Shown: positions 1-30,559 of the stretch, in pieces | How the letters are laid out: the number at the start of each line of letters is the position of its first letter | Numbering within the stretch: position 1 is the stretch's first letter | Assembly (NCBI GenBank): GCA_004431415.1 | Contig: QPMI01000075.1 | Span: 54,642-118,641 of the forward strand | DNA: 64,000 bases | From: Cyanophora paradoxa CCMP329 | Taxonomy: Eukaryota > Plantae > Glaucophyta | Direction of reading: 5' to 3' | Position numbers and translations under genes: made by a program | Notes under the pieces: model-generated | Told to the model about the DNA's origin: nothing | The model's database searches: none | Seen by the model: only the letters and a program-made list of their open reading frames with translations

Positions 1-3000
1 CGCTCTCCCTCCTGGAGGCCCTGGACGCGCGCGAGAACCGCCTCGCGAGCCTCCCGCGGGGCCTCGGCGCCCTCCCGCACCTCCGCAGGCTCGTCGTGGA
101 CGGCAACCCCCTCTCCAAGGCCGACCTGCCCCCCGCCGCCCGCCGCACCAGCGACGCCCTCCTCGAGTACCTCCGCTCCAGCCGTGCGCCCCGCGCGCGC
201 TCCCGTCCCGCGCCGCTCTCTCTGCTCAGCGAGGCGGGGCGGGCGGCAGAGCGCGTGCTGGTGCCCAAGGAGGAGAAGTGGAGCCCGGGGGAGGGCTTCC
301 TCAACCTCTCCCAGTCGGGCCTTGAGGCGTGGCCCGCCGACGAGATCGCCGCCGTCGGCCCCGAGAACATCCGCGAGCTCGACCTCGGCGGCAACCTCAT
401 CCGCTCCCTCCCCGGCGCGCCCCGCCCCGATTCGATCTCGCCCCGGATCGCGGCGCTATGTGCCCCCCCTGCTGACCGGGGCGCGCGCGTGCACGCGCAG
501 GGCCCGAGCTCGCGAAGCTGGTCAACCTCACCTGGCTGCGCCTCACCCACAACCTGTGCGCGCTCGCCGCCCGCCCCGCTCCGGCCTCCCCCGCCCCCTC
601 GCGCTGACGCCCTGCAGGCTGACGGAGCTGCCGCCGGAGCTGGGGCGGCTGACGCGGCTGCGGACGCTCCTGCTGCGCGAGAACAAGCTCTTCAGCCTGC
701 CCCGCGAGGTCGGCTCCCTGGTCAACCTGCGCGAGCTCCGCGTCTCGGGGAACGGCCTGCGGGCCCTGCCCCCCGAGCTCGGCCGGCTGCCCAGGCTCGA
801 GGTCCTGCACCTGTACCCCAACGAGCTCCTGCGGCTGCCCCCCGGCTGCCACGAGGGCGACGCGCCCGAGACCGTCCTCGAGTGCCTCCGCTCCCTCGCC
901 GCCTCGCCCCGTGCGCCGCCCTCCGAGGCTCCGCACCCGCACCCGCCCACCTCTCACCGCTCGCGCAGAGTCCTCCTCGGGCCCCTTCGGCTCCCGCCTT
1001 CTGGTGCGCTCCCCTTCCCTTCCCGGCGCGCAGGCGCCCACCCGCGGATAGCCGCTGACGCCGCGCCGGCAGCGCGGGCCGGGGCCGCTGGAGCTCGCCC
1101 CGGGGGGCTACCTGAATCTCGAGTGCCGCGGGCTGACCGAGTGGCCGGCGGCGCTGATCGAGGCGGCGGGGCCCGCCCGCCTCCGCCGCCTCGACCTCGA
1201 CCGCAACAGCATCGCCGAGATCCCCGGTCCGCCCCCGGCCCCGCCCCGCCCCGCCCCGCCCCGAGGCCCGTACGCCGTCCGCCGAGCGGGGAGCGCAGGC
1301 GCGGCGCTGGCGCGGCTCGCGGGCCTGCAGGAGCTGCACCTGGGGGGCAACCGCCTGCGCCGCCTGCCCCCGGAGATCGTCTGCCTCCGCTCCCTCCGCA
1401 CCCTCACCGTCCACGGCAACCTCATCCAGGCGCGCGCGCCCCCGTACCCCTCCCTCTACCCCTCTTAAACCCCTTCCCCCCCTTGGCACCCCGCAGGCGC
1501 TGCCGCCCGGGCTTGCGCAGCTGCCGCGGCTGGTGTACCTGGCGGCGCTGCCGAACCCGCTGCAGGAGCTGCCGGCGGCGGCGCGCGCCAGCGACGAGGC
1601 GCTCCTCCGCCACCTCCGCCGCCTCGCCGCGCAGCGTGCGCCCCGCGCCCCGCCTGCCCGCCCTTATGTCTTCGAATTTGCGCCTCCGGGATCCGACAGT
1701 GCCCGACGAGCCGAGCGACGAGGCCGCCGCGCCCGCCACGCCGCGCGAGGCCGGTGGCGCGGAGAAGGAGCAGCCGCCCTCCCCGCGCCGCCGGCGGTCC
1801 GCCACCCCGCCGCCCCCGCCGCCCGAGCGCCGAGGCGCGCCCCTCCGACCGGCCCCGTGCGCGCTGCAGCGGTTCGACGATGCGGCCGAACCCCTCCCGC
1901 CCGTCGCGGCGGCCGGGCACGGCGCGGGCGGCCTCATGGCTAGCGCACACGGGCCGTGCAGCCTGGCGGCGGCCCCTTCGGAGGCGACGGAGGCGGAGAC
2001 GGAGGCCGAGCTGGGCGCCATCGCCGAGGCCCTCGCCGCGCTGGAGGGGGGCGGGCGGAGGGGCAGCCCGAGCAGGCGCCGCAAGCCCCACCACCGGAGC
2101 CGCTGGAGCCGGAGCCGCAGCTGGCGGCGGCGGCGGGGAAGGCCCCGCCGGAGACGCCGAGAGCAGCCCCGGAGGCCGCCCCGACGGCGCTGCCGCTGAC
2201 GCCCCCCGAGTCGGCGCGAATGCCGCCGGCCCCGCCGCTGACCCCGACGCCGGGCGCGGGCGCGGGGCCGGCCCGCCCCGCCGGCCTCGCCGCCATGTCC
2301 GTCGACGACGTCGCCGTGTGGCTCCAGTGCGCGCCGGCCGCCCCTCCCGCCCCGCCCCGCCCTGCCGACGGGGCCGGGGCTGCAGGCGGGCGGGCTTCGG
2401 GGCGCTGGAGGGGGCCTTCCGCGCGAACTTCGTCTCGGGGCGGGCCCTCCTGCGCCTCGAGGAGGCCGACCTCGAGCAGCTCGGCCTCGCCGCGCCCCTC
2501 GCCCGCAAGAACTTCCGCCTTGAGGCCCGCCCCCTAGGCCTTCGCCCGCGTCGCCCCTCCCGTCCGACCCTGGGCTTACTTTGCCCGCCTGCCCAGCTGG
2601 ACGCCCTCAAAGCACAGGCGGAGGAGGCGGAGGCGGCGCCGCGGCCGGGGCACGCGCACGCGCCCCCGGGCCTAGGGCTCGCGGGCGCCCCGGCGGGCCC
2701 CGGGGCCCTCCGCTACGACGCCTTCATCAGGCGCGTCCCTGGAATCTCGCCCCGCCCGTCCGACGTCGCTCGCTAAAAAGCGCGCAGCTACGCGCACGCC
2801 GACGCGCCGACCGTCCGGCGGTACGTCGAACGGCTTGAGGCCGCCGGCTTCTCCCTCTGGTGCCGGCCCCGCCCCCGGCCCCGCCCCACCCCGCCCCGGC
2901 CCGCCCCGAGCGGGGGGCGCCGCGCGCCGCAGGGTGGACCGGGAGCTCAAGGCCGGCCAGCAGTGGCTGGAGGTCATCGCGGTGCGCCCCCCCCCCCGCC

Positions 3001-3496
3001 CGCCCCGCGGCCCGGGCCCCTCGAACAGCCCCCCCTCGACGCGGGGGGTACGCGCAGGAGGCGATGGTATGCTGCCGGACGTACGTCTGCTTCCTCTCCA
3101 CCCACTACTTCGCCAGCAAGAACTGCGACGACGAGATGCAGGCGCGCTGAGAGCTAGACGGCCCCGCGCGCGGCCTGTCCGAGGCCGACGTCGCGCCGCG
3201 CAGTACGCGCACCACAAGCTGCGCATCCCGAAGATCCCCGTCTGGCTCTGCGACCCCGCCACCCCGGGGCTCAAGATGCGGAGGGCGCGCCACCCCCCGC
3301 CCCCCCCCCCCCCCCCCCCCCTCCCTCTTCCCTCCCTCCCCTCCCCTCCCGCGGCCTCTTGACTGATTGGCGGCGGCAGGACTACGAGGTGATGCTGGCG
3401 GGGTTGACACACACGGCGCAGCTGGGCCCCGAGGCGCCCCACGTCGACGCCGCCTGCCGCGCCCTCGCAGAAGGCCTCCGGTCCGCCCGCCCCTAG
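1..3496 (+). CDS. Multi-exon LRR - SAM - TIR domain protein (5' end outside window)
   Basis: Joined exons give LRRs (LRTLLLRENKLFSLPREVGSLVNLRELRVSGNGLRALP) and a Pro/Ala linker. A SAM domain follows at ~2295-2610 (MSVDDVAVWL..FRANFVSGRALLRLEEADLEQLGL). A TIR_2-like domain is at ~2710-3496 (YDAFISYAHAD..VDRELKAGQQW..CRTYVCFLSTHYFASKNCDDEM..KIPVWL). Stop TAG 3494-3496. Confidence 0.85.
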
Positions 3497-4223
3497 CCCT
3501 GCCAGCCCTGTGCCTCAGGGGCTTGCAATTGCTCGTAGGTCGTTCGGGCTCCCGGGACCCCGCGCCGCCCCGCACGGTGGCCCACACCACGGACCCGCGG
3601 CGACACCATGAAACGATTTGGCGAGGCGATGATTTCACTGACCACGCCCAATATTAATCATTGAATAATACACGCCCAATATTAATCATTGAATTGAATT
3701 GAGAATGCATCTGAATGTTTGCAATTGTCTCGAATACAAAAGCCAGTAGCTAGCCAATAGCTAGATACAGTGCCGAATTGCATTTCTAATCGAATCTCAA
3801 TATTGTCATGTCATGATCATGATGTGCCGGAAGTCTTTTTCTTTTGGAAGTCTTTTCAATCTAACAATATTGGCGTCGACGTCAGAGCTACGTTAGGCTA
3901 CGGTATTTTAATATATAAGATATCGATCATTGCCCGGTTGGGCTTTTGATTTGCAAAAAACTAGCTATTCATGCAGTGTTCGCAATTCAAAGCTCCCCAA
4001 AGCTGAGCCCACCATCCCGTGTCCCGAGGCTCCCATGACATGCATGGCCGGCCCCACTCTCTCCGAGGCTCGGCGAGGTTTCGCCAGCGCTCTCGCGCGG
4101 CCGCGCGCTGCAGCTGCGCGCGTGAGAAAGCTCAAGAATTGGAGCCGCGGAATAATCACTTCTACCTATAGCTGCGTCGGTGCGAAATGGTTTTCCACCT
4201 TTACGGACGCCTCAGTCCTAGGC

Positions 4224-6159
4224 CTATCGGCGGCCATAATATGGGTGCAAATGACGATCAGCGAAATACTCGTCGACCATGCCCATGCCTAGGCCCTCCA
4301 GAAACTCCTCCGTCGAAAGGTCCTCCTCTTCCTCCTCTTCCTCCTCCTCGCTCTTCCCCCCCGGCCCCCAGAAGGAGACGCGGGCCGAGGGGAGGGCCGC
4401 CGCCGCCGCTGCCCGCGCCGCCCCCCGCTCGGCGTAGACGCCGCCCTCGTCCCCGAACCGGAAGAGGAGCACCCCCCTCGGGTCCACCCGCAGGCGCACC
4501 TGCGCCGCTCTCAGAAGAGGGGGGGGGAAGAAGAAGGGGGGTACGGACCTCGGTGGACTCGATGGCGCAGCCGGCGAAGGCGGAGAGGCGGCCGAGCTCG
4601 TCGACGAGCCCCGAGAGGTCCTCCACGGCGTCCTCGCCCACGGAGGGCACGAGGGCGAGGCGGCGGGGCCGGGCGGCCGCCAGCGCCGCCGCCGCCTCCG
4701 CCGCGCGCCCCGGCGCGAGGTCCACCGCCACGTCGAGGGAGATGCGCCCCGGGAAGCTCTGGCCCAGCGCCGCGAGCTTCGCCAGCAGCTCCGCCGCCGG
4801 CGGAACGTCTGCGGGGTACGTCTTAGAAAGGGGCGGGGGGGGGGGAGAGGGGGGTACGCGCGGGACGCACGGAAGCAGAGCTCGAGGTCGGAGAGGGAGG
4901 GGGAGCGCCCGAGGGCCGCCGCGAGGCCGTCGAGGCGCCCCGCGATGCGCCCGGGCTCGATGCGGCTCCGGTGGCAGACGTCCAGCGGCCCCAGGCTCCG
5001 CAGCGCCGGGCAGGCCCCGAGCGCCGCCAGGTCCTTCCCCTCCACCCCCGGGTGGAGCTGCCGTAGCTCAAGTTAGAATAGGAAGAAGAAGAGCGGCAGA
5101 GGAAACGGACCCCGTAGAAGACGTGCAGGTGCTCGAGGGCGGCGAGGCGCGGCAGGGCGCGCAGGGCTCGCCCCGAGAGGAGCGCGCGGACCCGGAGCCT
5201 GCGGTCGCGCGGGCCGGGGTTAGCTAAGCCGGGCGGGGCGGGGCGGGGCGGGGCGGGGCGGGGCGGGGCGGAGCGGCGCGCACTCTTTGAGGGTGTGCGG
5301 AGCGGTGGCGGAGGATGCGAGGGCCTCGATGAGGGGCGCGGCGTCGCGGGCGGCCTCCAGGCCCGGGGCGGCCCCCTCGTCGATCTCCAGGCACTCGAGG
5401 CTCGGGAAGTGGCGGAGCAGGCCCCAGAAGTCCGCGTGGAGGCGGAAGAAGCTCAGGAGCATCTCGCCGTCGAGCGTGCCCCTGTACGTGTTCCGTATGG
5501 AGAGCCGGCGGAGCGCGCGGCACGCGGCGGGGACCGCGGCCGCGGGCGCGGCCGGCGGGTCGAAGGAGTGCAGAACGATGGGGACGCATTGCATGCACTC
5601 GCGCAGCCTCACGTCGAGGCCTCCGAGGCCGCCGCTGGCCATGGTGCACGCTGAGATGAGGGATTCGAGGCTGGGGCTCCCGCTGAAGGCGTCCCCATCG
5701 CCCTTCGCCTTCAACAGCAGGCGCGTGTTGAGCGAGGCGCCGGGGGCCAGGCGGATCCACCGCCTGCCCTCGCCAGCCCCGACCAGGAGCTTGGCGATCC
5801 GATCCGCGACGTCGATCTTCGAGCTCGGGCGCCGCCCGACGACCTCCAGCCGCCGCCAGAGGATCGCCTCGGCCGCGTCGCGCCAGCGGCGACAGACCAG
5901 ACGGGCTTTCGCCGCCGCCTCTAAGCCAAGGCTCTCGAGGATTCGCGAGATGAGCTCCTCGGGCAGCCGATCGATCGGCGGCGCGGCAACGTCCGCCTCG
6001 AGGGAGCGCTCGCTCGAGCCCCGAGCTGCGCGTGGATGAGCGGTGGCTTGGAAGTGGAGCGCATGCATATGCACGCGCACTGGGGGGCGATTCCGCGGCC
6101 TCTGTCGTCGGGCGGGCTTCCGCCTGCGGGTTCTTCCTCTTACGCCCGGCAACAGGCAT
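4224..6159 (-). CDS. F-box protein with LRR-like C-terminal region (multi-exon)
   Basis: F-box motif IDRLPEELISRILESLGLEAAAKARLVCRRWRDAA; ATG at 6159 (MPVAGRKRK); acidic C-terminus, stop at 4224. Confidence 0.8.
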
Positions 6160-6372
6160 CTGCGGCGGAGTCAATGCACGCTAGATCGCTCTAATGCACG
6201 CATACGCACTGCGCGTGCGGGAGAGGCCGCGCTCGGCCTCGTTGGGGGGGCTACGTGTTTCTTCGTTCGCATTCGGAGACGGCAGGCTCGTAGGTAGTGG
6301 AGCGGAGCGCAAGAAGACCGGCTCTTCGGGCGTTGCTGCGGCCAGCGAGCTCAGTGCGGTGAGAGAGCAGAT

Positions 6373-17990: not shown

Positions 17991-19104
17991 ATGCGCGCCG
18001 CCGGCACCGGTATATACGTATACGTACCCCGCGATCGCTTCCCGTGTCTCTAGCTATAGGCTGGGCGCCGGCCTTAAAGCTTCTCCTGACTCTAGGCCCT
18101 GAGGCTAGGCTCATGATGCGCGCATGCGGCCGTGTGCATGCCATGCACTCCCCCGTCGAGGTCCTCGCGGCGGGCTCGCGCTTCGAATTCGCGCCTCGAG
18201 GTCTAAAGGGAGGCCGCCTCTCCGCGCAGAAGTCCGCCTCGCGCTACGCGTCCCCACTGACCGCCACCGGTACCCCCCATAGGGCCGTCTGTGCATGCGC
18301 ATGCACTCCACGGCGCCCCATCATGGCATCGATATCGGCACGTGGCCCTCGCGCGCGATCCGCTGGCACCGCTGCGCATGCAGCCTTTCGGGCGGCGGCG
18401 AGTCGCCGGCGACGTCGACGCGTACGTCGACAATTGCAAGCCGTCACACGCGCTATCGATATCGGTATCCCCGCGAGGTCGATCGCGAGCATGCGCAGCC
18501 CAGGGTCCGGCCTCCCGAGTCCAGGCCTAGCCGCCTAGGGTCCGGCGGCGGACTCCGGCCTTCCTGAGAGATCATAGATCGAGAGTCCCAACTCCCGACT
18601 CCCGAGTCCGCTTCCGAAGTTCCGGTCCGGCCGCCAGCTGCAGCGCGCAAGGCAAGCTCCGCCCCCTGGTCGAGCTCGCGATCGAAGGGGCAGGATCTAG
18701 GAGGCGATCGCGAGGAACTACTTTGAATTTAATTTGTCGTGTGGCGAGAGTCCAAACGTCGAACGTATCCAGCGGCGATTCCAGCCTAGCCCGCCGCCTA
18801 GGCGCCGGCCAGGCTGCGCATGCGACTCATAGGAGTCCTAGCCTGGCAGTCCTAGGCCTGTCTCGAGCCCCGCTTCGGCACCGAGCTCGCGATCGAGCCT
18901 GCATGGCACCGCTTCGGCTTCGGCACTGATCATGATGTCGAGTCATTGTCGACCATGCATACAAGCTTTTGAGTCCAAATTTAAAGTTAAAGCTAAGATA
19001 TGCATATGCGAGCTCGAGATTGAGACACACTCAGTGACTGTGACATACTAGTACGTATACATGTGTGCAGCTGCTGCGCTGCAGCAGGCTGCAGCTCGCG
19101 CTCC

Positions 19105-19150
19105 TAATATCACTACCTACGGGGGGTTCGCCCCACCATAGTCTCTCAAA
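19105..19150 (+). repeat. Hairpin-containing ~45 bp repeat, copy 1 (short A tail)
   Basis: taatatcactacctacggggggttcgccccaccatagtctctcaaa, one mismatch to the copy at 30503. Confidence 0.85.
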
Positions 19151-21649
19151 TAAAGTCCGTTCTACGGTAGCTATAGGCTATAGCCTTGTAGCGGCAATGT
19201 AGCCTCGCTAGTGTGCGCAGTGCAAGCTGTGTGCAGTGGATCCGATCCCGGAGAGGCTGGGAGAGGCCCGGAGAGCCCGGCCGCGCCCGGCCCGGCCGCG
19301 GTGAAAAGAACGCCTGCTGCCAATTGGGGGTACTCGAGCTCCGGTCCTATAATTGCTTGCATGCATACTCCGTGTTCGCATATGAGCTCAAGATTCCGAG
19401 CGGGTAAGTCTCATGAAACGCAGAAGTCCTCTATCGACGTCGACGTGCACCAGGTAAGTTCAACGGTAGCACGACGAGTCGACGACGTGCACGAGTACGT
19501 ATACGTGACGACTCTGACGACTCAGTGACGAGTCACTGACGAGTCAGTGACGACGTTACCAGATCTAGACGGACGTCGACGACCAGTCGACGTCGTCGAC
19601 CGTCGGTCCGGCGTCGGACCACTCGACGCCGACGAGTCACTGAGTCGGCGACTCGGCGTCGGCGGTACGTCGCCGAGTCGCCGTCGACTCGCCGAGTCGT
19701 CGCTCAATTGCAAACGTTAACGTTGGCGGGGCCCCGAACACATGAAAGCATGCATTCTGAACTCTTCGTCTCATATGCAACTGCAACATGCAGTTTTATC
19801 TCGAAATTCGATTAAGCATTCGATAATTTGGTGTTGACGGAAAATTGGCCAGTATATATATATATTATAGATATTGCAGTTGGTGTTGATGGAAAACGGC
19901 CAATTAGAGTTTTTCGCACGCACATTTTTGTTATACTGACCTCAGGCAGTGTGGCACTACTAGCTATACTATGATAGTACTATGGCTGGTACTAAGTCAC
20001 GTGCACACTGAGTGGTACTCAGTGTGAGTAAGAAGTAGTACTAAGTGTGACTAGTACTGTCGAATCAGTGTCGAGCGCGCTGCGGGCCTGCCGCAGTACT
20101 AGTGCGGGCCTGCGGGCCTGGCTGCGGGACCGGCGCCCGGGCGGCCGGGTGCGGGCCTGCAGGCTGCGGCACGTGCCAGTCGATATCGGAAAGAAAACAT
20201 AATGTTTGCAATCACTGAGTCATTAAATGTTCAACGGTTTGCGGTGCATGCGCACTGCGGCATATATACTGCCGGCGATTGTGCCGTGGTGTTCTTAATG
20301 AGACGTCCACTTTTGCAAAAAAAACGGCTTGAGCAAGCCGGCTCGAGGGGGACGGGCCCCGGACGGCGCGGCCGGCTCGAGCCGGCGAGCCGGCGAGCCG
20401 GCTAGGTATTTTATATATAGTATTTTATATTATTGGAAACGGTATATCGAATATTACACATGGCGAGGACGGCGTACCCCCACCCTCGAGCGGGCTCGAG
20501 CCGGCAATTTGCGCTCGAGCCCCACGGCCCGGCGGTCCCCACCTCTACCGGTAGTCTCTCACTGTCTCTGCCATGGCCAGTGCGGCAGGCAGCCGGCGCC
20601 TGGCAGGCTGTGGCAGGCTGGCAGCTGCAGCCTGCAGGCTGCCGCAGTCACTGAGTGCTGCCTGTACAGGCTGTACTACAAGTAGTGTTACTAGCTATAT
20701 AGTGTACTGTTTACCACTAGTAGTGTACTGTTTACCGTAGTACATGTGGGCCGTGACAGCAACTGCACCTGGCAGCCTGCAGCTGTGGCAGGCAGTGGCA
20801 GCGCAACTCACTGAGTCAGTGTGCCGCAGTGAGTGCAGAGTCACTGCAGACCTTGCCGCGTCGGACCTTGCGAGACCTTGCGCGCGAGACCTTGCAATTG
20901 CGGCCTGCACGAACTCGAAACTGCGATCGGCAGCAGCGCAGCAGCGCATGCAGCTGCTGAGTCGGCGCCGCTGAGCTGCCGCAGTGCAACTACTGTCAGT
21001 ACTGCGCACGCTTGCAATTGCGTAGTGCACTGAAGCACCAGTCGCCCGAGCGCACGTGCCGCAATTCCGAAGTTCGCCGACGTTATAATCAACATGGTCA
21101 CTGGTAGGGTCCCATCCTCATGCATAAATACGCATGAACGCTGATCATGCTCGGTCCGACCAGGAGCGCGACCGGAGGTCAGAAGCGCAGGGGGAGCGCA
21201 ATCTTACCCGCCTCCGGAGCCAGCTCGGCTTCAGGGGGGGGATGCGGTCCACGCATCTGTCCATGCATATGGTGGGCCAAGGCCAGGTAGTAGGCCTACG
21301 CATCCAGGTGCGATGTCGAGCCCTGCCGCAGTGCGCGCGTGGCCCACTGGCCGCGCGCCTTTGAGCAACGCCTTCCGAGTCCGACATCATTCCACATGAT
21401 CAGAGTATTCGACGCGTACGGGCATACAACACACAAGCTCGATGGTTAAGGACTTAACGAATTCGAAGCCGACGTCCGCGAGTCAGCCGCAAATGTCAGG
21501 CATGTACCGTAGTACTTGCAATTGATCATGAGATGCATACATATGCATATATATACATATTCATGCTCGCATCTATATACGTATGCAATGCATATCTATA
21601 GCTAGCTAATCTGTTTCTTGGTTTATTGAAATGCATATAATCCGCACTG

Positions 21650-24600
21650 ATGCGCGCGCGCGGCGCATGCGCAGATCCGCCCGGACCCGCTTACGACAGG
21701 ATCCGGCGCAAAATCGTTGACGGAACCCCAGAGAGCTTGATACAAAAGCTCGATATCAGCCTTGCCACCCGGCGGAAGTTCGGTACCCTTCGTCAATTCC
21801 TCTGTGTGCTGGTTCTCGCTGGCGTGCTGGTACGTTGCGAGCTGCCGCAATTGATCTTGATGGCATGCACGTGCGTGCGCATTTACAAGTTTCGCGATCG
21901 CAGCTCTTCCTTTTCGTCAGCCTTATTCAACATGGAACGACAAAGGACGGATGTAAGGTGCTCTTCCGCAGATGATCTTGAGACCTCATCTGCACGAATT
22001 GCAATTGCAGCTGCATTATCAGCACAGATCTAGCTGTTTTGTGTCCTCGGGCTCTAGATCTCATGCATTCCAACTGATTGTTTTCATTTCGTCAGGATTT
22101 CGATGCCACGCGACGTTTTACAATCGTGTCGGATAATTGCAGAGTCCTGTTTACTGCTCAAAACCGGCCGGATGAGACTGTACGCAATGGACCGTCGACA
22201 CTGCGAGCTTGCGTTGAGATCGACGGCGGTCAATGGCCTATGTGAGTTCTAGCAATAATCATTATGATCAACCATGCGCTAGGACTGCCTCCGCCTCACG
22301 ATCAAATATATATTTGCAATGAATTTGATCGGAGTTGGAATCATGAACAATTGCAATCATCGAAAAACAAAATTTGAATCCTTTCGCAGATCGCAGCGAA
22401 ATCCCCCAATCGCAGACCTAAATACGAACACGCTCAAAATTGTGGTGCGGAGTTAACTTTGCGCCTTCGAGCCCGTGATCACGGTGGTTGATGTTGCAAT
22501 TGTTGCGCTTTAGAATCAAAGATTCTTGGGCGGAGGTCTGACGGACCGGTTAGCGAATTCTTTTGGGGTGCAGTCGAATGACATGGAGCAAAAAGGCGGC
22601 CTTCGAGACTTCATGGAATGGTCCGCCGAATTCGAAATTCAAAACTCTGCTTGAACTTCGGCGCGCCTATTATTGCAAGGTTCGCCCGTGGCCAACAACT
22701 CCTGTGCCATGGTGCAGGTCGTGCACGGTCTGGATCGAGTGGAGTGGCAACCTTCCGCCCGTGAACATATCCTCTGTTCCCTCGCCAGCGAACGTGGAGT
22801 ACCTTCCCGGTGCACGGGATGCGCCGATGCGCCTAGGCTTATAAAATTAGTCGACCAAAGCGGAAGTGACGCGGCGCCAGGTACTATCGTCAAAAACTGC
22901 CAGTACTACGGGGACGAAAAGGTCTGCCCTCCAAGAAAGAGAACGGAGGGTGTTGGAATCGGAGCAGTCTTCCAGCCGGACGCGGAGCTCCACATCGAAG
23001 GTGACTTTCATGCTCTCGTTCAAACACGTTAACGTTGCAGTGGCAGTTTAATTTACCATAATCAATTAAAACGACGACGGCGTGCGCAGGCCCTGATTTG
23101 CGCGTGCACCTGGATGGAGTCGTCGTCGACAAGCTAGCCGTCATCGATACGAAAAGATCGGCTTTCTTCATGTCCACTAGGCAGCAGATCACAGATGCGA
23201 AAGTGGAGCTCGCAGACGGTAATTTCCAGCTTTGGCAGCCGGTCAGTTGCGGAAACTTGATCGTGTGATTAAATTGATTGCGTCGTTGATGTCTGACTTA
23301 TGCGCCGCTGAATGCAGGAGCCCTTCTGTGCTACTGTCCAGCCTCCTGCCGAAGGTTTCTTGAGCGAAAACGGAGGGGGCTCGTGCTTCTTCGGTGATTC
23401 GGTCACCAATGTCAGCACTATTCCGGATCCGGATCCTGCCTTTCACGGCGCCAGCGTTGCGTGGTCGATTGGGAACTCGGCTGCAAGCTCTTGCACCCCT
23501 GAGAGATTCAAGGTTACCGCGAGTGGCAGGAGCGCCAGAATTCAGCTGGAGGCCAAATTGCGGTTCGACGGTCTGAGCCAAAATGCATACCCGGATCTTG
23601 TCAGCACTACGCCGGTGAGATCGAAATTTGCTTAAGCTTTCAGCTGATCGGCATCTGCGCTGACTGTCACCTGCAGGCAGCATTTAGCCTAATCAAGGAT
23701 CTGAAATGGGGGCAGCCTTCCGCAGCCACTCCGTATAGAATCAGCAATGCTGAGGTCGAAACGATGCGTTCTTTGTTCAACAAAGACGACACTTCCGTCG
23801 GATATGTTTTCTCTTTGCCATCGGACTACGTATCATTCGTCGACACTGGTGCATTCAATGCTTTAATTTCAATAGTTTTGTCTGCATTCGAATTCGACTC
23901 TCGGTGTTTTCTCGGAATTCGAATTCTTTCTAACGATTATTACTTAATGCAGATCACGCCGCCACCGACATCGTTGGACAGTGGCTGGCTGTATCAAACA
24001 CGATGTATGAGCTCATGAGGCCGCAGAATCTCGTCCTGGTGCGTGGGGTCGTTTTCATTCTTCGTTGTCTTCGATTGCGATCTCGTGTACGTATTCATCA
24101 AGCGCAGATTACCGGCGGCCTGCTCTACCCCACGAAAACGCTTCTTCCTGTCGTTGTCATCCCGCCTTGCCCTTCGTGGTCCTACAACCCGCTGAGGACC
24201 CTCGCCAACGATCCGAGGGCGGCGGAGAAACTTCCCACGATTACGGAATCGCAGTTGTTCGGGATAATTGACGAGAACATTCTGGAGATGCCGAAGGGCA
24301 GCAACATGGCACTTGTGCGCGGAGCAGTTGGTGGTGACTCGTACTTGCTCAAGAAGACCAACAACGATTACTGGAAGACCGACACGATCAACTCCCTTCG
24401 TTCGAGATCCAAGGTCTTCCTCGCCCTACTCGTGCTCACTGGAGTTCTCAGCGTGGGGCTTCTCACGCTCTTCATCACTCTCCTCGTATTGTTCGTAAAG
24501 CTTGCTTTATCCTATGAAACCGCAAAATTCGTTTAATATCTTCAGAATCGCACCTCTTTTGACTCAAGCTACGCGATCGCCCGCAGATTTGCCCGCAAAA

Positions 24601-27600
24601 CGACCACCAGCCTCGTCAACAAGGGCAACAAGGCTTACAACGACATTTTGAGTTTGAAACGACTGCGACACAAGCGTGAACACACGCACGATGCAGACGA
24701 CGAGGAGGAGCTCATGAATACGGCGAAAAGCTCTTCAGCGAATCCAGCGACCCCGAAACAAGACTGGGAAGACGTTGACCTGGAAAAAGAGATGGGCGAA
24801 TATGAACATGAGTTGAGCCGTGTGCAGCGATACAAATTGCGACTGCTAAACTTCCTCGTCGCGAGCAACATGAGTCGTCTTTTCTTGCTGGTTGACATAT
24901 CGCTTTTGCTCGACCAAGTGCAAAATAAGGCCCGTCGTCAGGAGAAGACGCTTGAATCAAAGGAGCACACCGACAGGCAAGATGGAGACCTTGAGGCAAA
25001 CACCGTAAGCGGCGGCCTTCTCGATCAGTATGGCGCGAAGCAGCAAGGCGTTTACGTCGAGAACGTCGACGTCATGCATAGCCACAGTGCGCTGAGCGAT
25101 TCCGGATCTGAACTATAGCTCGGATCCGAGTCGTCTGAGCGACGGTAATCTGCAGGAAAGCCGGACGAACGCGACCCCGATGAGTCGTTTTTCAGGTCTC
25201 TCTTCAACAAACGATGGAAGCGCGACCTTCTGTCCTTCTCGCTTCATATATGTAATTATTTCGTGTTTCAATGCATATGCAAAAGCGCCGAATTTCTGAA
25301 TTCGGTCATTGAATTACATACTGCAGGTGTCATCATCTTTCCGACACTTCCTGTGCTCGTAGCAGTGTGGGGCTACAATGTCGCTTGGGCGGACTTCGAT
25401 TTCACCACCAACACCGCTGCGGAGGACTGGGAGCAATCCACTACAAGCCGAATAGATTACAGGGCGAGCTCAGATTATGAACTTCTTCCTGTGTTTCCGT
25501 TTTGTGAGTGCCTGCAGGTGACAATATACACTGCTGTCTACAGCGCGGCGATAGGAGTCTACGTGTTCTCGTTGGTGCGATCATTGTATCAACTGCATCG
25601 CATGCATACTCACAAGAACCCGCAAATCGCTGACCGCGGCATGCATTGTGTGCAGACTTCTCTCTGCAGGTGATTCAATTTGAATTGAGGCTGCAGCTGG
25701 AGAAATTGAGGATATGTCATATTAATACTTCAGCGCGCAGGTACTACTTCCTGAAACAATCGGCCGCGCAAGCCAAGGCAGAAGCCAAGGAAGCTCCCGC
25801 TTCCGACTCGAAAAAACAGGAACAGCTGTCGGACCAGCCATCAGGAAACACTGTGACTAGAGCCTTTCAGACATTCTTAAACGGTGGTTCAGCCGGCTCC
25901 CAACTCCGGAATCTGAAGGGGTTTGGGGGCTGGTTTCAACGGAGTTGGCTTGTTGGCTGCATGAGCTCGGTAAGTCTGGCTTTTGATCATCCATGATCAA
26001 GCGGTTCGTGCGCACATCATTCATGATCAAGCGGTTGTTCGGCAGATTGGTTTCCTCGGATGGCTTGTGTTTCTTTTCGTTTCTCTGATTGGCATCTCTG
26101 TAATGACACTCTGGGTCCGCCAAGCTGAAGGCCCGATAACATGATTTCGCATTCTCAAAGCACTCTCAGGTTCTTCTCGGAACAATTCTGAAGCCAGAAC
26201 GGGTTATTCCTTACTGCGTGGCCATCGGCGCATTCTATGCGCACATCGGGGTGAGCTGCGCACTTTCCCCTGAAAGCTGAACAATCTCTAGATCTAACGC
26301 ATTCTTGGAATTAAATCAGTTCCTGTGGAAGTTCCTTCAAAAAGTTCGCAACACTATAGAAGAAGAGCTCAACAAACTTCGGAACAGAATTAGAGATACA
26401 TTGGGCCTACTGAACCGCTGGATGGTGATTGCCAACGGACTTATCAACGAAAAAGAGGTAGAAGAGAAACTCAAGGAGAGTACTGCACCTGTTCTCCAGC
26501 GGGTAACACAAGGGCTGAAAGACCTGGATGCAAATGCTTCAAACAGATTCAATGTAGCGACGAACGGCAATTATTTTCAGGTTCGCTTGATTATAATTCT
26601 TGACGCTTGGACCAAATCCAGAAAAATGTGTTCAAACGCGCAATCTGAATTGTGATTGGGGCATCCAGCGCGTCGACGAGCTTAAGGAGAAGATAAAAGA
26701 TAAAGGCTCGAGGATTCAGTTCTTTGGAGCGTCCAGCAAAGGCTTCCTCGAAAGTCTGGATTATATTAGCCGTGAACTGGTGATCCACAATGAAGACGAT
26801 TGTGATTGCACATTACCGATTAGGCCTGCGCAGGAGAGTGCTTTCAAGCCTAAAGAAGACGGCACATTCCCCTTGAAACAGTGTGAGGAGGCGCTGATCA
26901 AGAAGCCGGTATTAATATTCTTACGTATACATTCCACATCTGTCCTACTGACGTAACACATGTAAATAACCGTTGTCGACCGCCCCCGCGCAGGGCTCGC
27001 AAGTCCAAGGCCCGGGTGCGGAGAGTGCCGAAAAGGTCCCCTGTCCCCCCCCCCCCCCCCCTTCCCCCCCGCGGGTCCCCCTTTTTTGCATGACCGAGAA
27101 TGACTGAGATTCGCACGCGCAGAACGCCGGCGCCACCGGCGCCAAGCCCCAGGACACAACTCGAGGAAATCTAGCAAATCTTCTCGAAAAGAAACAGGAA
27201 TTGACAGTGAAAAAGAGGAAGTTCGCAAATGCGCGGGCACAGATCGAAAATCCTCTCGCGAATGCATTCTCCAAGGTAGGTTTGCGTTGCCTGAAGCGTG
27301 CAGCCCGCAGCGCTACCTCGCAAGCCAGAACCTCACTTTGGAGTTGCAGCTTGAAGACATCTACACCAAACAGCTTCTGGATGGTGCGAAAGTCAAGGAC
27401 GATCCTTCCAAAGTGAAAGACTGCTTCCAAAGAATCCGCAACCTGGTTTGCTCTCGGGCGGCCCAACTTTAGCTTCAAGACAAGCTCTTTTATTACCGTA
27501 TACGTAGTACTGATGCCGGCACGCGCTGCAGGTCAAAGACCCTCCCGAGCAATTCGCAAGAAGTCTCCAGACTGAACTCGAGAACTTGAGAGGGTGGGCT

Positions 27601-29306
27601 TCTACTGCAAAGGTACATTAGATATTACTAAGTTAATTTTAGTTAATAGTAATAAATGTTTAGCGGGTTCGCTCCAAACGCGCGCAGCACGTCCTGGGCG
27701 CCCGTTCCATCGCCACTGACACTGTTAATGTTGTCAGACCAACGACCTGGAAATTTTCCAACAACTTATGAACTGCATCGCCGGGGCCAGATGCGTCTTG
27801 GCAGCGACAGTGCGCATCCTGTATTAATTACTCGCACCTTTTGTCGACGTCCTCTTGCGCGTCTACAGGCAAAGGATCTTGAGAGCTATGCTAGCGACAT
27901 TTTGAGAGAATTGCAGGCGGTCACACGCTTCCTCATCATAAGTAAACTAAAGAATGTGAGCATGCGCTCCCTGCCCCCAGGCCTACCGCACTGTTCACGA
28001 ATTAAATTCGGATTCGTGCACAGCGCTTCATGCTCATTATCATCTTGGCAAAGCGTGGATTTAATGACGGTGTCGATAGGGCGCTTATGGAAAATCAAGC
28101 GCGTGGAGGTATTTCATTTGCAATATATATATATATATTGAATCAGTCGAAGCTGCAGCTGGCCTGACGTGCGAGCCCAGGTACCGGTGCCAGCGCTGGC
28201 GCCGGATCCGGAACTGGCGCCAATTGGCCAGAGGCGAATTCGACCCCCTTGCAACCGGCACCAACGCCGGCCTCCCTCCCTCAGCCGGCCTCGGGCAATG
28301 CCGTGGCAACGGAGAGCCCGGGATTCCCGGCCGATCCAAAGGACATCAATGCGACACAAGAGGAAAAAGAGCAAGCGGAGAAAATCATCAGGGAATTCGG
28401 CGACAGTACGTTCCACCTTATAATTATGCTTTGATTCGCAATCGTGATCGGGCGCATGCGCAGAGATGAAAATCTTCATGGAGGCGATCAAGACGGTGTT
28501 CATGCCCCAGGCCCGCGGGTTCATCTCCATGCAGTCGCGCTTCGCCGTCGGTGACGCGAAATCCATCCTCGTCTCCTCCGTCTATCTCATCATCCTGTTC
28601 ATCTTTATCTTCGTCGGGATTGCCGCGTGCGCCCAAACGCTTGTACTACATTCTCTACTACGCTGTCTTCGAGGTTAAATTTCAAAGTTAATGTCTACTA
28701 CCCTGAATCAGGTTCGGCGTCCCCGGCTACATCACGGCGGGAATCAACTGCGTTCTCGCTGGTGGCGCAGCGCTTGTCACGAACAGATCCGCCCAGAACA
28801 GCGTACGTGCCTCCCCCGCTCGAACGACAGACGTCGACAATAAATACAAGCCACGGATCCGAACGCATACTGTTGCGCAGGAGGTGAACAACATTGACGG
28901 CGGAACTCTGGGTTTGTCTATCTCATTCCATATCTGCAATGCGCCCTGCAACTGATTCTAAATCGCAGGGAGGTTTGCCGAGCGCGCCACGAAGGTCAGC
29001 GAGAAGATCCGGGCGAAGATCGACGGCCTGTTCGGGTCGTTCAACCAGCTGGTCGACAAGGCTGTCGGCGCGAAGGCGTTCCAGCTGCTGCAGTCCAATG
29101 AGATCAAAATCGATGAATTTGCCAACAGCGATCTGGAGAAGTTTCTCCCACTGCTCCTCGCCGCGATGCCCTCCAAGGAGGAGCTCTTCGACCTGTTCAA
29201 GGAGACCGCCGCGAAAAAGAACGACAGGATCACGGGCATGGGCGTCGAGGCTTCCGCGGCCGCCGACAATTCAAAGCACGTTGTTGCGCAAACGCAGTCA
29301 GTGTAG
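21650..29306 (+). CDS. Very large multi-exon multi-pass membrane protein of unknown function (start uncertain, ~21.1-21.9 kb)
   Basis: A chain of GT/GC..AG-bounded coding blocks on +; TM segments FLALLVLTGVLSVGLLTLFITLLVLF, VLLGTILKPERVIPYCVAIGAFY, VSSVYLIILFIFIFVGIA; the last exon ends VAQTQSV* at 29306. Visibly lower GC than the flanking genes. Confidence 0.65.
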
Positions 29307-29849
29307 TTACTGTTAGCGTTATCTATCGCAGCCGTTGCCTGCACAGACAATTGCAGTCGCAGCTGCAGTTGCATGTTAAGCTATCGCTTAAGCTTGTTAC
29401 AAGTTAGCTCATTCATTCTACCTAGTCTGGCAGAAATCGGAACCGCAGACCGTCGGACGCCCCGCGATGGAATCATAGCTAGCGCGTCATGGTGAATCAA
29501 ATTTTGTCGCAATAGAAGTTAGCTGGTTCGAATATTGGCATCGTTTCGATGAAACTATGACACGCACTTTAGATGTACTTCGGTCATAGCGTATACGTAT
29601 CATAGCTAGCCTGCTTCAGCTGGAGCTTGCCCATGCATTCAAGCTCGCAATGGAAGCTAAGCTGTTTTGACAGTCTAGATGTACTAGGGCTTCTTCAACA
29701 CGTCGCTAATTCGTATACGTATACATTGTAGCTGCCCCGCATACGTCCACTGACCCGCCATAAATGTATGCGATTTGAAATTTATATATATAATTTAGTG
29801 CTTTGATGCCACGGGACATTTATAGTTCAACGGTGGGCACTGACTTTTG

Positions 29850-30559
29850 GGTCAGACGGTTTCTGGCGGGGGACCGGAGGCGAACGATTTAATTTGGTAC
29901 GAAGATGGGCCCAGCGCGAGAATATTTGCCTCTCCCGCCTGGTTCAGCCCCATCGTCTGCCTTCCCTGTCACTACTGGCTTGCGTTTCGCCCCTCCTCTT
30001 ATACTGCCGATTCCGAGTCTGCACCCGAGCTCTGCCCCTTTCCTCGTGTCGTCCCCAGTTCCTCAGATTAGTCTTCAGCCGTCCATTGTTTTACCAACTC
30101 TACAATCTCGATTCCGTTTAGACACTCCGCCAGCTTCGACTTTCCCTCTAGTGGTGTCCTACGTTTCGCCTCTCCTACTGTTCTACCGCCTTTGCCTCCT
30201 GCGACTACGTCTTCTAGTTCTGCTGTTAGCTCTGTCTTGTCGTCTTCGTCTAGATCTTCGTCTTCGACTGTAGTTCCTCGTGCTCGTTCTCCTTATTTGC
30301 TGCGTCCCGTGCTCCTCGTCGTTCTAGTGTGACTAGTACTTCTGCATCGACGCCCTTGAGCTCTTCTACTCCTTCTCCTCGTGCTCGTTCTCCTTATCTT
30401 TTGCGTTCTTCTGATCGTGTCCTTTCTCGTGATCCCTCTTGATTCTGTATATATTTTGTGCTAGTTTACTGTATCTTTGATTTGTGATTGCTTTGTTGTC
30501 TTTAATATCACTACCTACGGGGGGTTCGCCCCACCGTAGTCTCTCAAAAAAAAAAAAAA
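29850..30559 (+). mobile_element. Probable retroposon (SINE/LINE) 3' remnant ending in hairpin plus poly(A)
   Basis: Strongly pyrimidine-skewed body, then CTACGG-GGGG-TTCG-CCCC-A-CCGTAG stem-loop, TCTCTC and A14 (30546-30559). The 5' boundary is uncertain and I found no TSD. Confidence 0.5.

What the first reader, a model, noticed from the sequence alone, without database searches (positions are those of the whole stretch)
1..3496. LRR-SAM-TIR protein: a SARM1-like candidate immune receptor/executor in a protist
Seen: after splicing, one gene carries LRRs, a SAM domain and a C-terminal TIR domain that keeps the glutamate in SKNCDDEM. Known: SARM1 (ARM-SAM-SAM-TIR) uses SAM oligomerisation to activate a TIR NADase, and the Glu of the SxWCxxEL motif is catalytic in plant, animal and bacterial TIRs. 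Inference: LRRs replace ARM as the sensor, giving a soluble pathogen-sensing NADase with no NB-ARC/NACHT or TM segment in the visible part. The ORF track hides this because several introns split the domains.
Basis: partly seen in the sequence, partly recalled or inferred. Interest (0 to 1): 0.75.

Follow-up and report, generated by a model that had tools for sequence, protein, structure and literature searches.

The report
Algal LRR-SAM-TIR sensor-enzyme, split in annotation
One spliced gene of the alga Cyanophora paradoxa, which sequence collections hold as two separate proteins because the assembly lacks two letters that its transcripts carry, joins leucine-rich repeats to a SAM and a TIR domain and likely works as a cytosolic sensor that switches on NAD+ cutting when clustered, as one of at least 15 related TIR proteins of this alga.

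Summary
Spliced contigs show 16 of 17 introns directly. They add one letter at each of two homopolymer runs in the linker; only with both do LRR, SAM and TIR share a frame. A stored protein supplies the 146 residues upstream, giving 959 aa: three capped LRR cassettes (16 repeats), a 175-aa acidic linker, one SAM, one TIR (Pfam TIR_2 72 bits, Glu kept). There is no P-loop or membrane segment.

The SAM-TIR half matches a Cyanophora paradoxa record. The TIR belongs to a Cyanophora clade of at least 15 proteins with shuffled partners (LRR, RING/IBR, beta-helix, BBS1-like, membrane). A second LRR-SAM-TIR is annotated as one gene.

It is not a SARM1 family member: no ARM, one SAM, unrelated TIR. It likely works like SARM1 by convergence. 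NADase activity, SAM clustering and an immune role are untested. Only 4 of 29 Glu-bearing protist TIRs were active in one published screen. SAM+TIR with other repeats is common in protists; LRR was absent from 51 such rows seen. Verdict: new variant of a known kind, interest 0.55.

The parts
1..3611 (+). Visible part of the LRR-SAM-TIR gene. Exons 1-183, 250-414, 501-555, 618-910, 969-1003, 1073-1226, 1299-1429, 1497-1635, 1700-1796, 1870-2326, 2386-2524, 2597-2730, 2788-2859, 2933-2981, 3058-3141, 3204-3284, 3380-3480, 3539-3611. 813 aa here, plus 146 aa upstream of the window.
   Evidence: Splice model (17 introns of 57-95 nt, 11 GT-AG and 6 GC-AG).
3..183 (+). End of LRR cassette 1 (last 2 of 7 repeats and the helical cap); the rest lies upstream of the window
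   Evidence: Pfam LRR_4 E 2e-4; P0169; motif count
250..910 (+). LRR cassette 2: family-type N-cap, 5 repeats, C-cap
   Evidence: LRR_8 40.5 bits on 619-900; cassette alignment
1073..1635 (+). LRR cassette 3: N-cap, 4 repeats, C-cap; 47% identical to cassette 2 and 48% to the cassette of paralog P0008
   Evidence: LRR_8 30 bits on 1301-1429
1700..2294 (+). Low-complexity Ala/Pro/Glu linker, 175 aa, net charge -18, predicted disordered
   Evidence: Composition; no Pfam hit
1781..1784 (+). C run one letter shorter than in transcripts (first frameshift of the assembly)
   Evidence: Tables 5 and 5c (runs X1, X4, X5); frame test
2052..2055 (+). G run one letter shorter than in transcripts (second frameshift); it causes the stop at 2197-2199 that ends P0169
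   Evidence: Table 4 (runs X1, X2, X3, X4)
2295..2620 (+). Single SAM domain over three exons; P0001 retains the in-frame intron 2525-2596 inside its last helix
   Evidence: SAM_1 37.4 bits; intron spliced out in X2 and X6; pLDDT above 90
2714..3480 (+). TIR domain over six exons
   Evidence: TIR_2 72.1 bits; five-strand TIR model, pLDDT about 90-97; VIA Z 15-17 to solved TIRs
3133..3135 (+). Codon of the predicted catalytic Glu in helix C (residue 873 of 959; E217 of P0001)
   Evidence: Invariant in 33 of 33 rows; 16 of 17 family TIR domains
3481..3538 (+).
   Evidence: Joint 3479-3538, GT..AG, in X1, X3 and X4
3539..3611 (+). Last coding exon, short Pro/Gly tail, stop TGA 3609-3611

Best explanation
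This is one spliced gene for a soluble 959-residue protein (three LRR cassettes, long linker, one SAM, one TIR with the catalytic-site Glu) that likely acts as a sensor-enzyme: the LRRs would bind a trigger, SAM self-association would cluster the TIRs, and the clustered TIRs would cleave NAD+ to deplete it or make an ADP-ribose-type signal, most likely in defence. Shown: gene structure, domain order, lack of P-loop and membrane segment, TIR fold, Glu, and membership of an expanded Cyanophora TIR clade with shuffled partner domains. Inferred: ligand binding by the LRRs, SAM oligomerisation, NADase activity, and the immune role. Odds by step: one gene 0.9; enzymatic TIR about 0.6; SAM as its clustering device about 0.6; defence role about 0.45.
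For: Overlapping spliced contigs tile LRR to TIR: X5 record 8 to 1900, X1 record 2 1700-2294, X2 record 6 1933-2522 and on into the next exon, X6 record 12 2415-2727, X5 record 9 2595-3282. The frame is open only with both transcript letters. Paralog P0008 is a single annotated LRR-SAM-TIR model, and near-copy P0002 joins LRR, linker and SAM. Pocket residues Phe, Ser, Tyr, His, Trp, Ser, Asn and Glu are invariant in 33 rows. 16 of 17 family TIR domains keep Glu across branch lengths up to about 1.5 changes per site; the one loss is the first TIR of a tandem pair. The model aligns with enzymatic TIRs: SPARTA TIR Z 17.4, rmsd 2.3, 135 aligned; AbTir Z 16.1; SARM1 Z 16.0. SAM fusion is a standard way to switch on plant TIRs (PMC12452931 passages). 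All examined enzymatic TIRs need the Glu and self-association (PMC10022894 passage). A cytosolic LRR-SAM protein that detects bacteria through its LRRs exists (LRSAM1, PMC8567218 passages). Lineage-specific expansion, domain shuffling, varied repeat number (4-7 per cassette) and decayed near-copies (P0002, P0006, P0042) are typical of immune families (general knowledge).
Against: No single contig spans the gene, and no DNA run laid covered the two indel sites. The Glu does not discriminate: 71 of 71 non-family rows have it. In an E. coli screen only 4 of 29 Glu-bearing TIRs of non-animal unicellular eukaryotes made a cADPR isomer, and TLR2 keeps a Glu yet is inactive (10.64898/2026.04.20.719644). 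That screen used isolated TIRs and measured three isomers. Scaffold TIRs fit the model as well as enzymes (Hydra TRR-2 Z 16.5, IL-1RAcPb 16.4, MyD88 15.7). There is one SAM, not SARM1's tandem pair. Several family members have no SAM (P0009, P0010, P0012, P0016), so SAM is dispensable in this family. The closest solved LRRs are LRRD1, Leptospira LRR proteins and the Ras scaffold SHOC2, not immune receptors. No data on infection or induction.
Confidence: 0.5

Rival explanations
1. Same single protein, but the TIR is a non-enzymatic adaptor that nucleates TIR-TIR assemblies with other family members (TIR-only, membrane-TIR, RING-SAM-TIR), as MyD88 and MAL do.
For: MyD88 TIR is among the better sequence matches in the PDB (25.5 bits). 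Scaffold and enzyme TIRs tie in structure. 25 of 29 Glu-bearing protist TIRs gave no product. The family includes TIR-only and predicted membrane-TIR members that could form a pathway.
Against: Glu and pocket residues are kept in 16 of 17 divergent family domains, which a pure scaffold need not do. The best single-domain relatives outside the family include bacterial TIR proteins (3 of 6 looked up carry names, all Firmicutes).
Confidence: 0.22
2. An enzymatic LRR-SAM-TIR whose LRRs read a host protein or stress state (a small GTPase, ciliary or cytoskeletal partner), so the output is cellular or developmental signalling rather than pathogen defence.
For: The LRRs most resemble SHOC2, LRRD1 and Leptospira-type 23-residue repeats. 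Paralog models join the TIR to BBS1-like and myosin domains. SARM1 itself senses the NMN/NAD+ ratio, not pathogens (PMC8635717 passage).
Against: The BBS1 and myosin joins may be gene-model fusions; I did not test them. Expansion, shuffling and decay of copies fit conflict-driven evolution better than housekeeping (inference).
Confidence: 0.18
3. The two frameshifts are real in the assembled strain, so the locus is a decaying gene or makes an LRR-only protein and a separate SAM-TIR, as the two stored proteins P0169 and P0001 have it.
For: Stored proteins are split. No single contig spans the locus. The family has degenerate near-copies. The one contig set that reads through introns like DNA (X10) did not cover the sites.
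Against: Both differences are single letters in homopolymer runs. They are seen in two samples (C) and three samples from two studies (G), in pieces with no other letter changed. Together they give an 813-codon open frame. P0169 needs a retained intron that transcripts splice out. P0008 shows the fused form independently.
Confidence: 0.07

Closest known systems
SARM1 / TIR-1 (ARM-SAM-SAM-TIR NADase)
   Same: SAM directly before a Glu-bearing C-terminal TIR and a repeat domain in front. Top PDB match by sequence and by Foldseek for the SAM-TIR half, because two domains add up. Top Atlas feature hit, 0.93.
   Different: LRRs instead of ARM; one SAM; TIR only 7 bits and 16-18% identical to SARM1's. 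The family's one entry in a published TIR atlas is 'Not in supported Clade', while SARM1 is clade 8 (PMC13142454 section and supplement).
Protist repeat-SAM-TIR proteins (Ank-SAM-TIR of Dolichomastix, WD40-SAM-TIR of Codosiga, many ARM-TIR-SAM)
   Same: A repeat domain plus SAM plus TIR in one soluble chain; listed in supplement 1 of PMC13142454.
   Different: None of the 51 SAM+TIR rows seen carries LRRs; their TIRs lie in other clades (8, 10, 12, 13) or in none; none is characterised.
LRSAM1 (LRR-CC-SAM-RING)
   Same: N-terminal cytosolic LRRs and a SAM before a C-terminal effector; its LRRs localise it to bacteria (PMC8567218 passages).
   Different: The effector is a RING E3 ligase, and it has coiled coils; here the effector is a TIR and the linker is disordered.
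Bacterial LRR-TIR proteins and LRR-Roc-COR-TIR
   Same: LRR followed by TIR_2 without a membrane segment; the nearest Atlas clusters for paralog P0008 (0.89, a lead only).
   Different: No SAM shown in those clusters; no Roc-COR here.
Toll-like receptors and plant TIR-NB-LRR
   Same: LRR and TIR in one chain.
   Different: No signal peptide-like or membrane segment, no NB-ARC/NACHT P-loop; TIR is C-terminal and soluble; a SAM takes the place of the membrane or ATPase oligomeriser.

Membership tests
TIR domain superfamily (Pfam TIR_2) | Profile match above the curated cut-off and five-strand TIR fold | tested here: met
   72.1 bits against cut-off 28; model and VIA Z 15-17
Enzymatic (NADase) TIRs | Glu in helix C at the catalytic position | tested here: met
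   E217 of P0001 invariant in 33 rows. Position judged by sequence alignment; the fold search gave no residue-level superposition
Enzymatic (NADase) TIRs | Glu-dependent NAD+ cleavage on self-association | not testable with these tools
   Needs an assay
SARM1 family | N-terminal ARM domain with NMN/NAD+ site | tested here: not met
   The whole N-terminal half is LRR
SARM1 family | Tandem SAM pair | tested here: not met
   One SAM stretch in Pfam and in the model
SARM1 family | TIR of the SARM1 clade | tested here: not met
   7.1 bits to SARM1 TIR against 60-154 bits for other TIRs; family member P023110 is outside clade 8 in PMC13142454 supplement 1. SARM1 was not a row of my own tree
SARM1 family | SAM-built octameric ring | not testable with these tools
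   Needs biophysics or cryo-EM
Toll-like receptors | Signal peptide and transmembrane helix between LRR and TIR | tested here: not met
   The protein starts with an LRR cap. The highest 19-residue hydropathy, 1.82, lies inside an LRR (residue 114); none lies between LRR and TIR
NLR / TNL (STAND) | NB-ARC or NACHT P-loop ATPase | tested here: not met
   No Walker A motif in 959 aa; no such Pfam hit in P0169 or P0001
Roco proteins | Roc-COR tandem after the LRRs | tested here: not met
   No Roc or COR hit; the linker is low-complexity
LRSAM1 | C-terminal RING | tested here: not met
   The C-terminus is TIR plus a short tail
Cyanophora TIR clade (described here) | TIR groups with the paralogs on one branch and shares the S-x-N-C-D-D-E-x-Q-Y/F-A-H-H motif | tested here: met
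   17 of 88 rows form one side of a branch, SH-aLRT 99, stem 1.6 (quick tree, unrooted)

The most novel reading that the evidence does not exclude
Cyanophora has built its own innate immune system around one TIR clade. Cytosolic LRR sensors are wired straight to an NADase TIR through a SAM polymer, a third route to a TIR 'resistosome' with neither the NB ATPase of plant NLRs nor the membrane of TLRs. SAM and TIR let different family members (LRR, RING/IBR, beta-helix, membrane-anchored) co-assemble into one network in the glaucophyte branch of Archaeplastida.
Probability: 0.25. Interest if true: 0.8.

Novelty: new variant of a known kind. Interest (0 to 1): 0.55.

Why it matters
Algal TIRs were left out of or unresolved in plant TIR surveys (PMC9806590 passages), and a 2026 preprint states there is no evidence yet for TIR-run programmed death in microbial eukaryotes (PMC13142454 passage). 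A natural sensor-SAM-TIR in a cultured glaucophyte is the design that plant labs build artificially to switch TIRs on, so it can be tested directly. The family's swapped front ends show how one effector module is rewired without an NB domain. Practically, the fusion is invisible in the stored proteins because two missing letters split it, so domain-architecture surveys on such proteomes will undercount these genes.

Tried and rejected
No whole genome was held, so the upstream DNA and paralog loci could not be read; paralog architectures rest on gene models I did not check against RNA. No listed run is on record as RNA; I treat X1-X6 contigs as transcripts because they skip GT-AG and GC-AG introns, while X10 reads through introns like DNA. 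Contig depth was not used for expression. Complex prediction of three SAM copies gave no verdict (score 0.25, mark 0.32, alignment not used, controls not run). The single-sequence fold of the LRR half P0169 was too poor to use (mean pLDDT 43.5). The wide VIA search was not run. The careful tree did not finish; the quick tree used 88 of 311 domain hits (45 bits or more, 70 or more aligned residues, one isoform dropped), is unrooted and has no SARM1 row. A bacterial origin of the TIR is therefore neither shown nor excluded. Word-index searches found only Cyanophora-type models (2 of 285, 1 of 542, 1 of 44 candidates), which is weak evidence of absence elsewhere. PADLOC gave only generic TIR matches (E 5e-8 or weaker for P0001). 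Three look-ups of earlier findings returned nothing. No second copy of the gene lies in the window (tblastn). Rejected: SARM1 orthology, TLR, NLR, Roco, LRSAM1 (see membership test).
Full report
1. Observation. The region is about 75% GC and dense with short introns. I built an 18-exon model with 17 introns of 57-95 nt, 11 with GT and 6 with GC donors. Contigs of public runs were laid on 1-3700 (X1, X3, X4, X10) and on 1560-3420 (X1, X2, X5, X6). None of these runs is on record as RNA, but contigs that skip GT-AG and GC-AG introns are transcripts; X10 reads through introns and behaves as DNA.

The stop at 3494-3496 lies in intron 3481-3538, which X1, X3 and X4 splice out; the protein ends at TGA 3609-3611. 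The assembly has two single-letter deficits in the linker: transcripts show one more C in the run ending at 1784 (X1, X4, X5) and one more G after 2052 (X1, X2, X3, X4). With neither or only one, SAM and TIR are out of frame; with both, the frame is open for 813 codons. And the gene begins upstream: P0169, a stored 696-aa protein with no source shown, matches my model for 413 residues and adds 146 residues from Met, in line with a contig that runs 428 nt past the window start. P0169 then keeps intron 1797-1869 and stops at 2197-2199. The other half is stored as P0001, EukProt Cyanophora paradoxa tig00000293_g23880.t1, 303 aa, SAM-TIR only, with intron 2525-2596 retained. No single contig spans the gene, but overlapping spliced contigs tile it from the LRRs to the TIR with overlaps of about 130 nt or more. 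The genome paper notes short introns (mean 86 bp) and models that need curation, and has no occurrence of TIR, toll or LRR in its main text (PMC6704402, passages).

2. Anatomy. The full protein is 959 aa. It has three tandem LRR cassettes of 7, 5 and 4 repeats (16 motif matches), each with its own N-cap and helical C-cap and 38-47% identical to each other. A 175-aa Ala/Pro/Glu linker with net charge -18 follows, then one SAM (SAM_1 37.4 bits) and a TIR (TIR_2 72.1 bits). There is no Walker A motif, and the most hydrophobic window (1.82) lies inside an LRR. AlphaFold2 on a 33-row alignment models SAM and TIR at pLDDT above 90 with flexible joins. Foldseek ranks TIR-1 and SARM1 first, because both domains match. 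For the TIR alone, enzymes and scaffolds tie: SPARTA TIR Z 17.4, Hydra TRR-2 16.5, IL-1RAcPb 16.4, AbTir 16.1, SARM1 16.0, MyD88 15.7. The Glu of SKNCDDEM (codon 3133-3135) is invariant in 33 of 33 rows together with other pocket residues.

3. Relatives. A full scan of 1.84 billion representatives gave a sharp top group. Of these, 14 were looked up and all 14 are C. paradoxa models; P0003 carries a model name on the same contig as two of them; P0042 and P0054 were not looked up. Full-length family TIRs score 104-154 bits against the query TIR and the next TIRs 60-71. Of six of the latter looked up, three carry names, all Firmicutes. In a quick unrooted tree of 88 TIR rows, the 17 family domains from 16 proteins form one side of a branch (SH-aLRT 99, stem 1.6). 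Sixteen of 17 keep the Glu, and so do 71 of 71 other rows. Partner domains vary: LRR-SAM-TIR (P0008, one annotated model), LRR-TIR (P0012), myosin-LRR-TIR (P0016), RING-SAM-TIR-IBR (P0007), beta-helix-SAM-TIR (P0011), BBS1-like-SAM-TIR (P0003), SAM-TIR (P0017), TIR-TIR-beta-helix (P0004; P0005 likewise), predicted membrane-TIR (P0019) and TIR-only (P0009, P0010, P0013). P0002, P0006 and P0042 look like decayed near-copies. The same capped LRR cassette recurs in P0008, P0012 and P0016. Some of these joins may be model errors.

4. Mechanism. Most likely a soluble sensor-enzyme. The LRRs bind a trigger (inferred), the SAM clusters (inferred), and clustered TIRs cleave NAD+ (inferred from the Glu and its retention). 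Known support: enzymatic TIRs need the Glu and self-association (PMC10022894, passage); SARM1's SAM ring is needed for activity and ARM holds TIR off (PMC8635717, passages); SAM fusion activates plant TIRs, though about 43% of Arabidopsis TIRs had the Glu and still gave no cell death (PMC12452931, passages). Against: only 4 of 29 Glu-bearing TIRs of non-animal unicellular eukaryotes made a cADPR isomer in E. coli, and some Glu-bearing human TIRs are inactive (10.64898/2026.04.20.719644, passages and part 2 of 6). The LRRs are of a common 23-residue type closest to LRRD1, Leptospira LRR proteins and SHOC2, which says nothing about the ligand. Nothing here shows an immune role beyond the pattern of expansion, shuffling and decay.

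5. Comparison. It works like SARM1 but fails three defining tests (ARM, tandem SAM, SARM1-type TIR). It is not a TLR, NLR, Roco or LRSAM1. In the TIR atlas of PMC13142454 (passages, section 5, and rows of supplement 1), nine Cyanophora proteins are listed. One is a member of this family (P023110 = P0004), marked 'Not in supported Clade'. This gene and P0008 are absent from that down-sampled table. The table mentions SAM_1 112 times and SAM_2 188 times; I saw 51 SAM+TIR rows, and 0 of 51 carry LRRs, while Ank-SAM-TIR, WD40-SAM-TIR and many ARM-TIR-SAM occur. So repeat+SAM+TIR is a recurring protist design, and the LRR version is an unreported variant as far as I could see. The Atlas found bacterial LRR-TIR clusters for P0008 (0.89, leads only) and no cluster showing LRR with SAM and TIR (three families shown at most, clusters of 50 or more only).

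6. Novelty and limits. Paper searches found no description of this gene, this family or an LRR-SAM-TIR architecture. 'Cyanophora paradoxa' with 'TIR domain' returned one unrelated paper. Also read as passages without such a mention: PMC7075850, PMC6040629, PMC9806590, PMC7145615, PMC2575513. Limits: subscription journals are missing, most SAM rows of the atlas table were not seen, and the supplement of the 2026 TIR screen, which lists domain architectures for about 16,000 TIRs, is closed and could hold this architecture from another organism.

7. Verdict. Observation confirmed with corrected boundaries; interpretation partly supported. New variant of a known kind. Interest 0.55. If the SAM-driven, NB-free immune network reading holds (probability about 0.25), interest would be 0.8.

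Noticed in passing
window 4200-6170, minus strand: An F-box gene converges on the 3' end of the TIR gene (F-box-like 41.2 bits).
   Followed up: partly
window 18000-30000: A 12-kb stretch at 50-59% GC against about 70% around it; 0 of 16 stop-free frames of 130 aa or more hit Pfam. Possibly a decayed insertion; unexplained.
   Followed up: partly
window 415-3379: 6 of the gene's 17 introns use GC donors, a high share compared with most eukaryotes (recalled, not checked).
   Followed up: partly
P0019 (tig00020693_g13027): N-terminal region, a hydrophobic segment (19-residue hydropathy 2.3) followed by basic residues, then a Glu-bearing family TIR: a Toll-like topology without LRRs.
   Followed up: no
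P0003, P0013, P0017 (contig tig00020902, models g15004, g15006, g15010): Three family members lie close together on one contig and group together in the tree (support 98); one is joined to a BBS1-like domain.
   Followed up: partly
P0004, P0005, P0014: Tandem TIR-TIR proteins whose first TIR is degenerate (Glu lost in P0004), two with a beta-helix tail; possibly a regulatory pseudo-TIR paired with an active one.
   Followed up: no
P0007 (tig00021348_g20536): RING-SAM-TIR-IBR: the same SAM-TIR module embedded in a ubiquitin-ligase-like protein.
   Followed up: no
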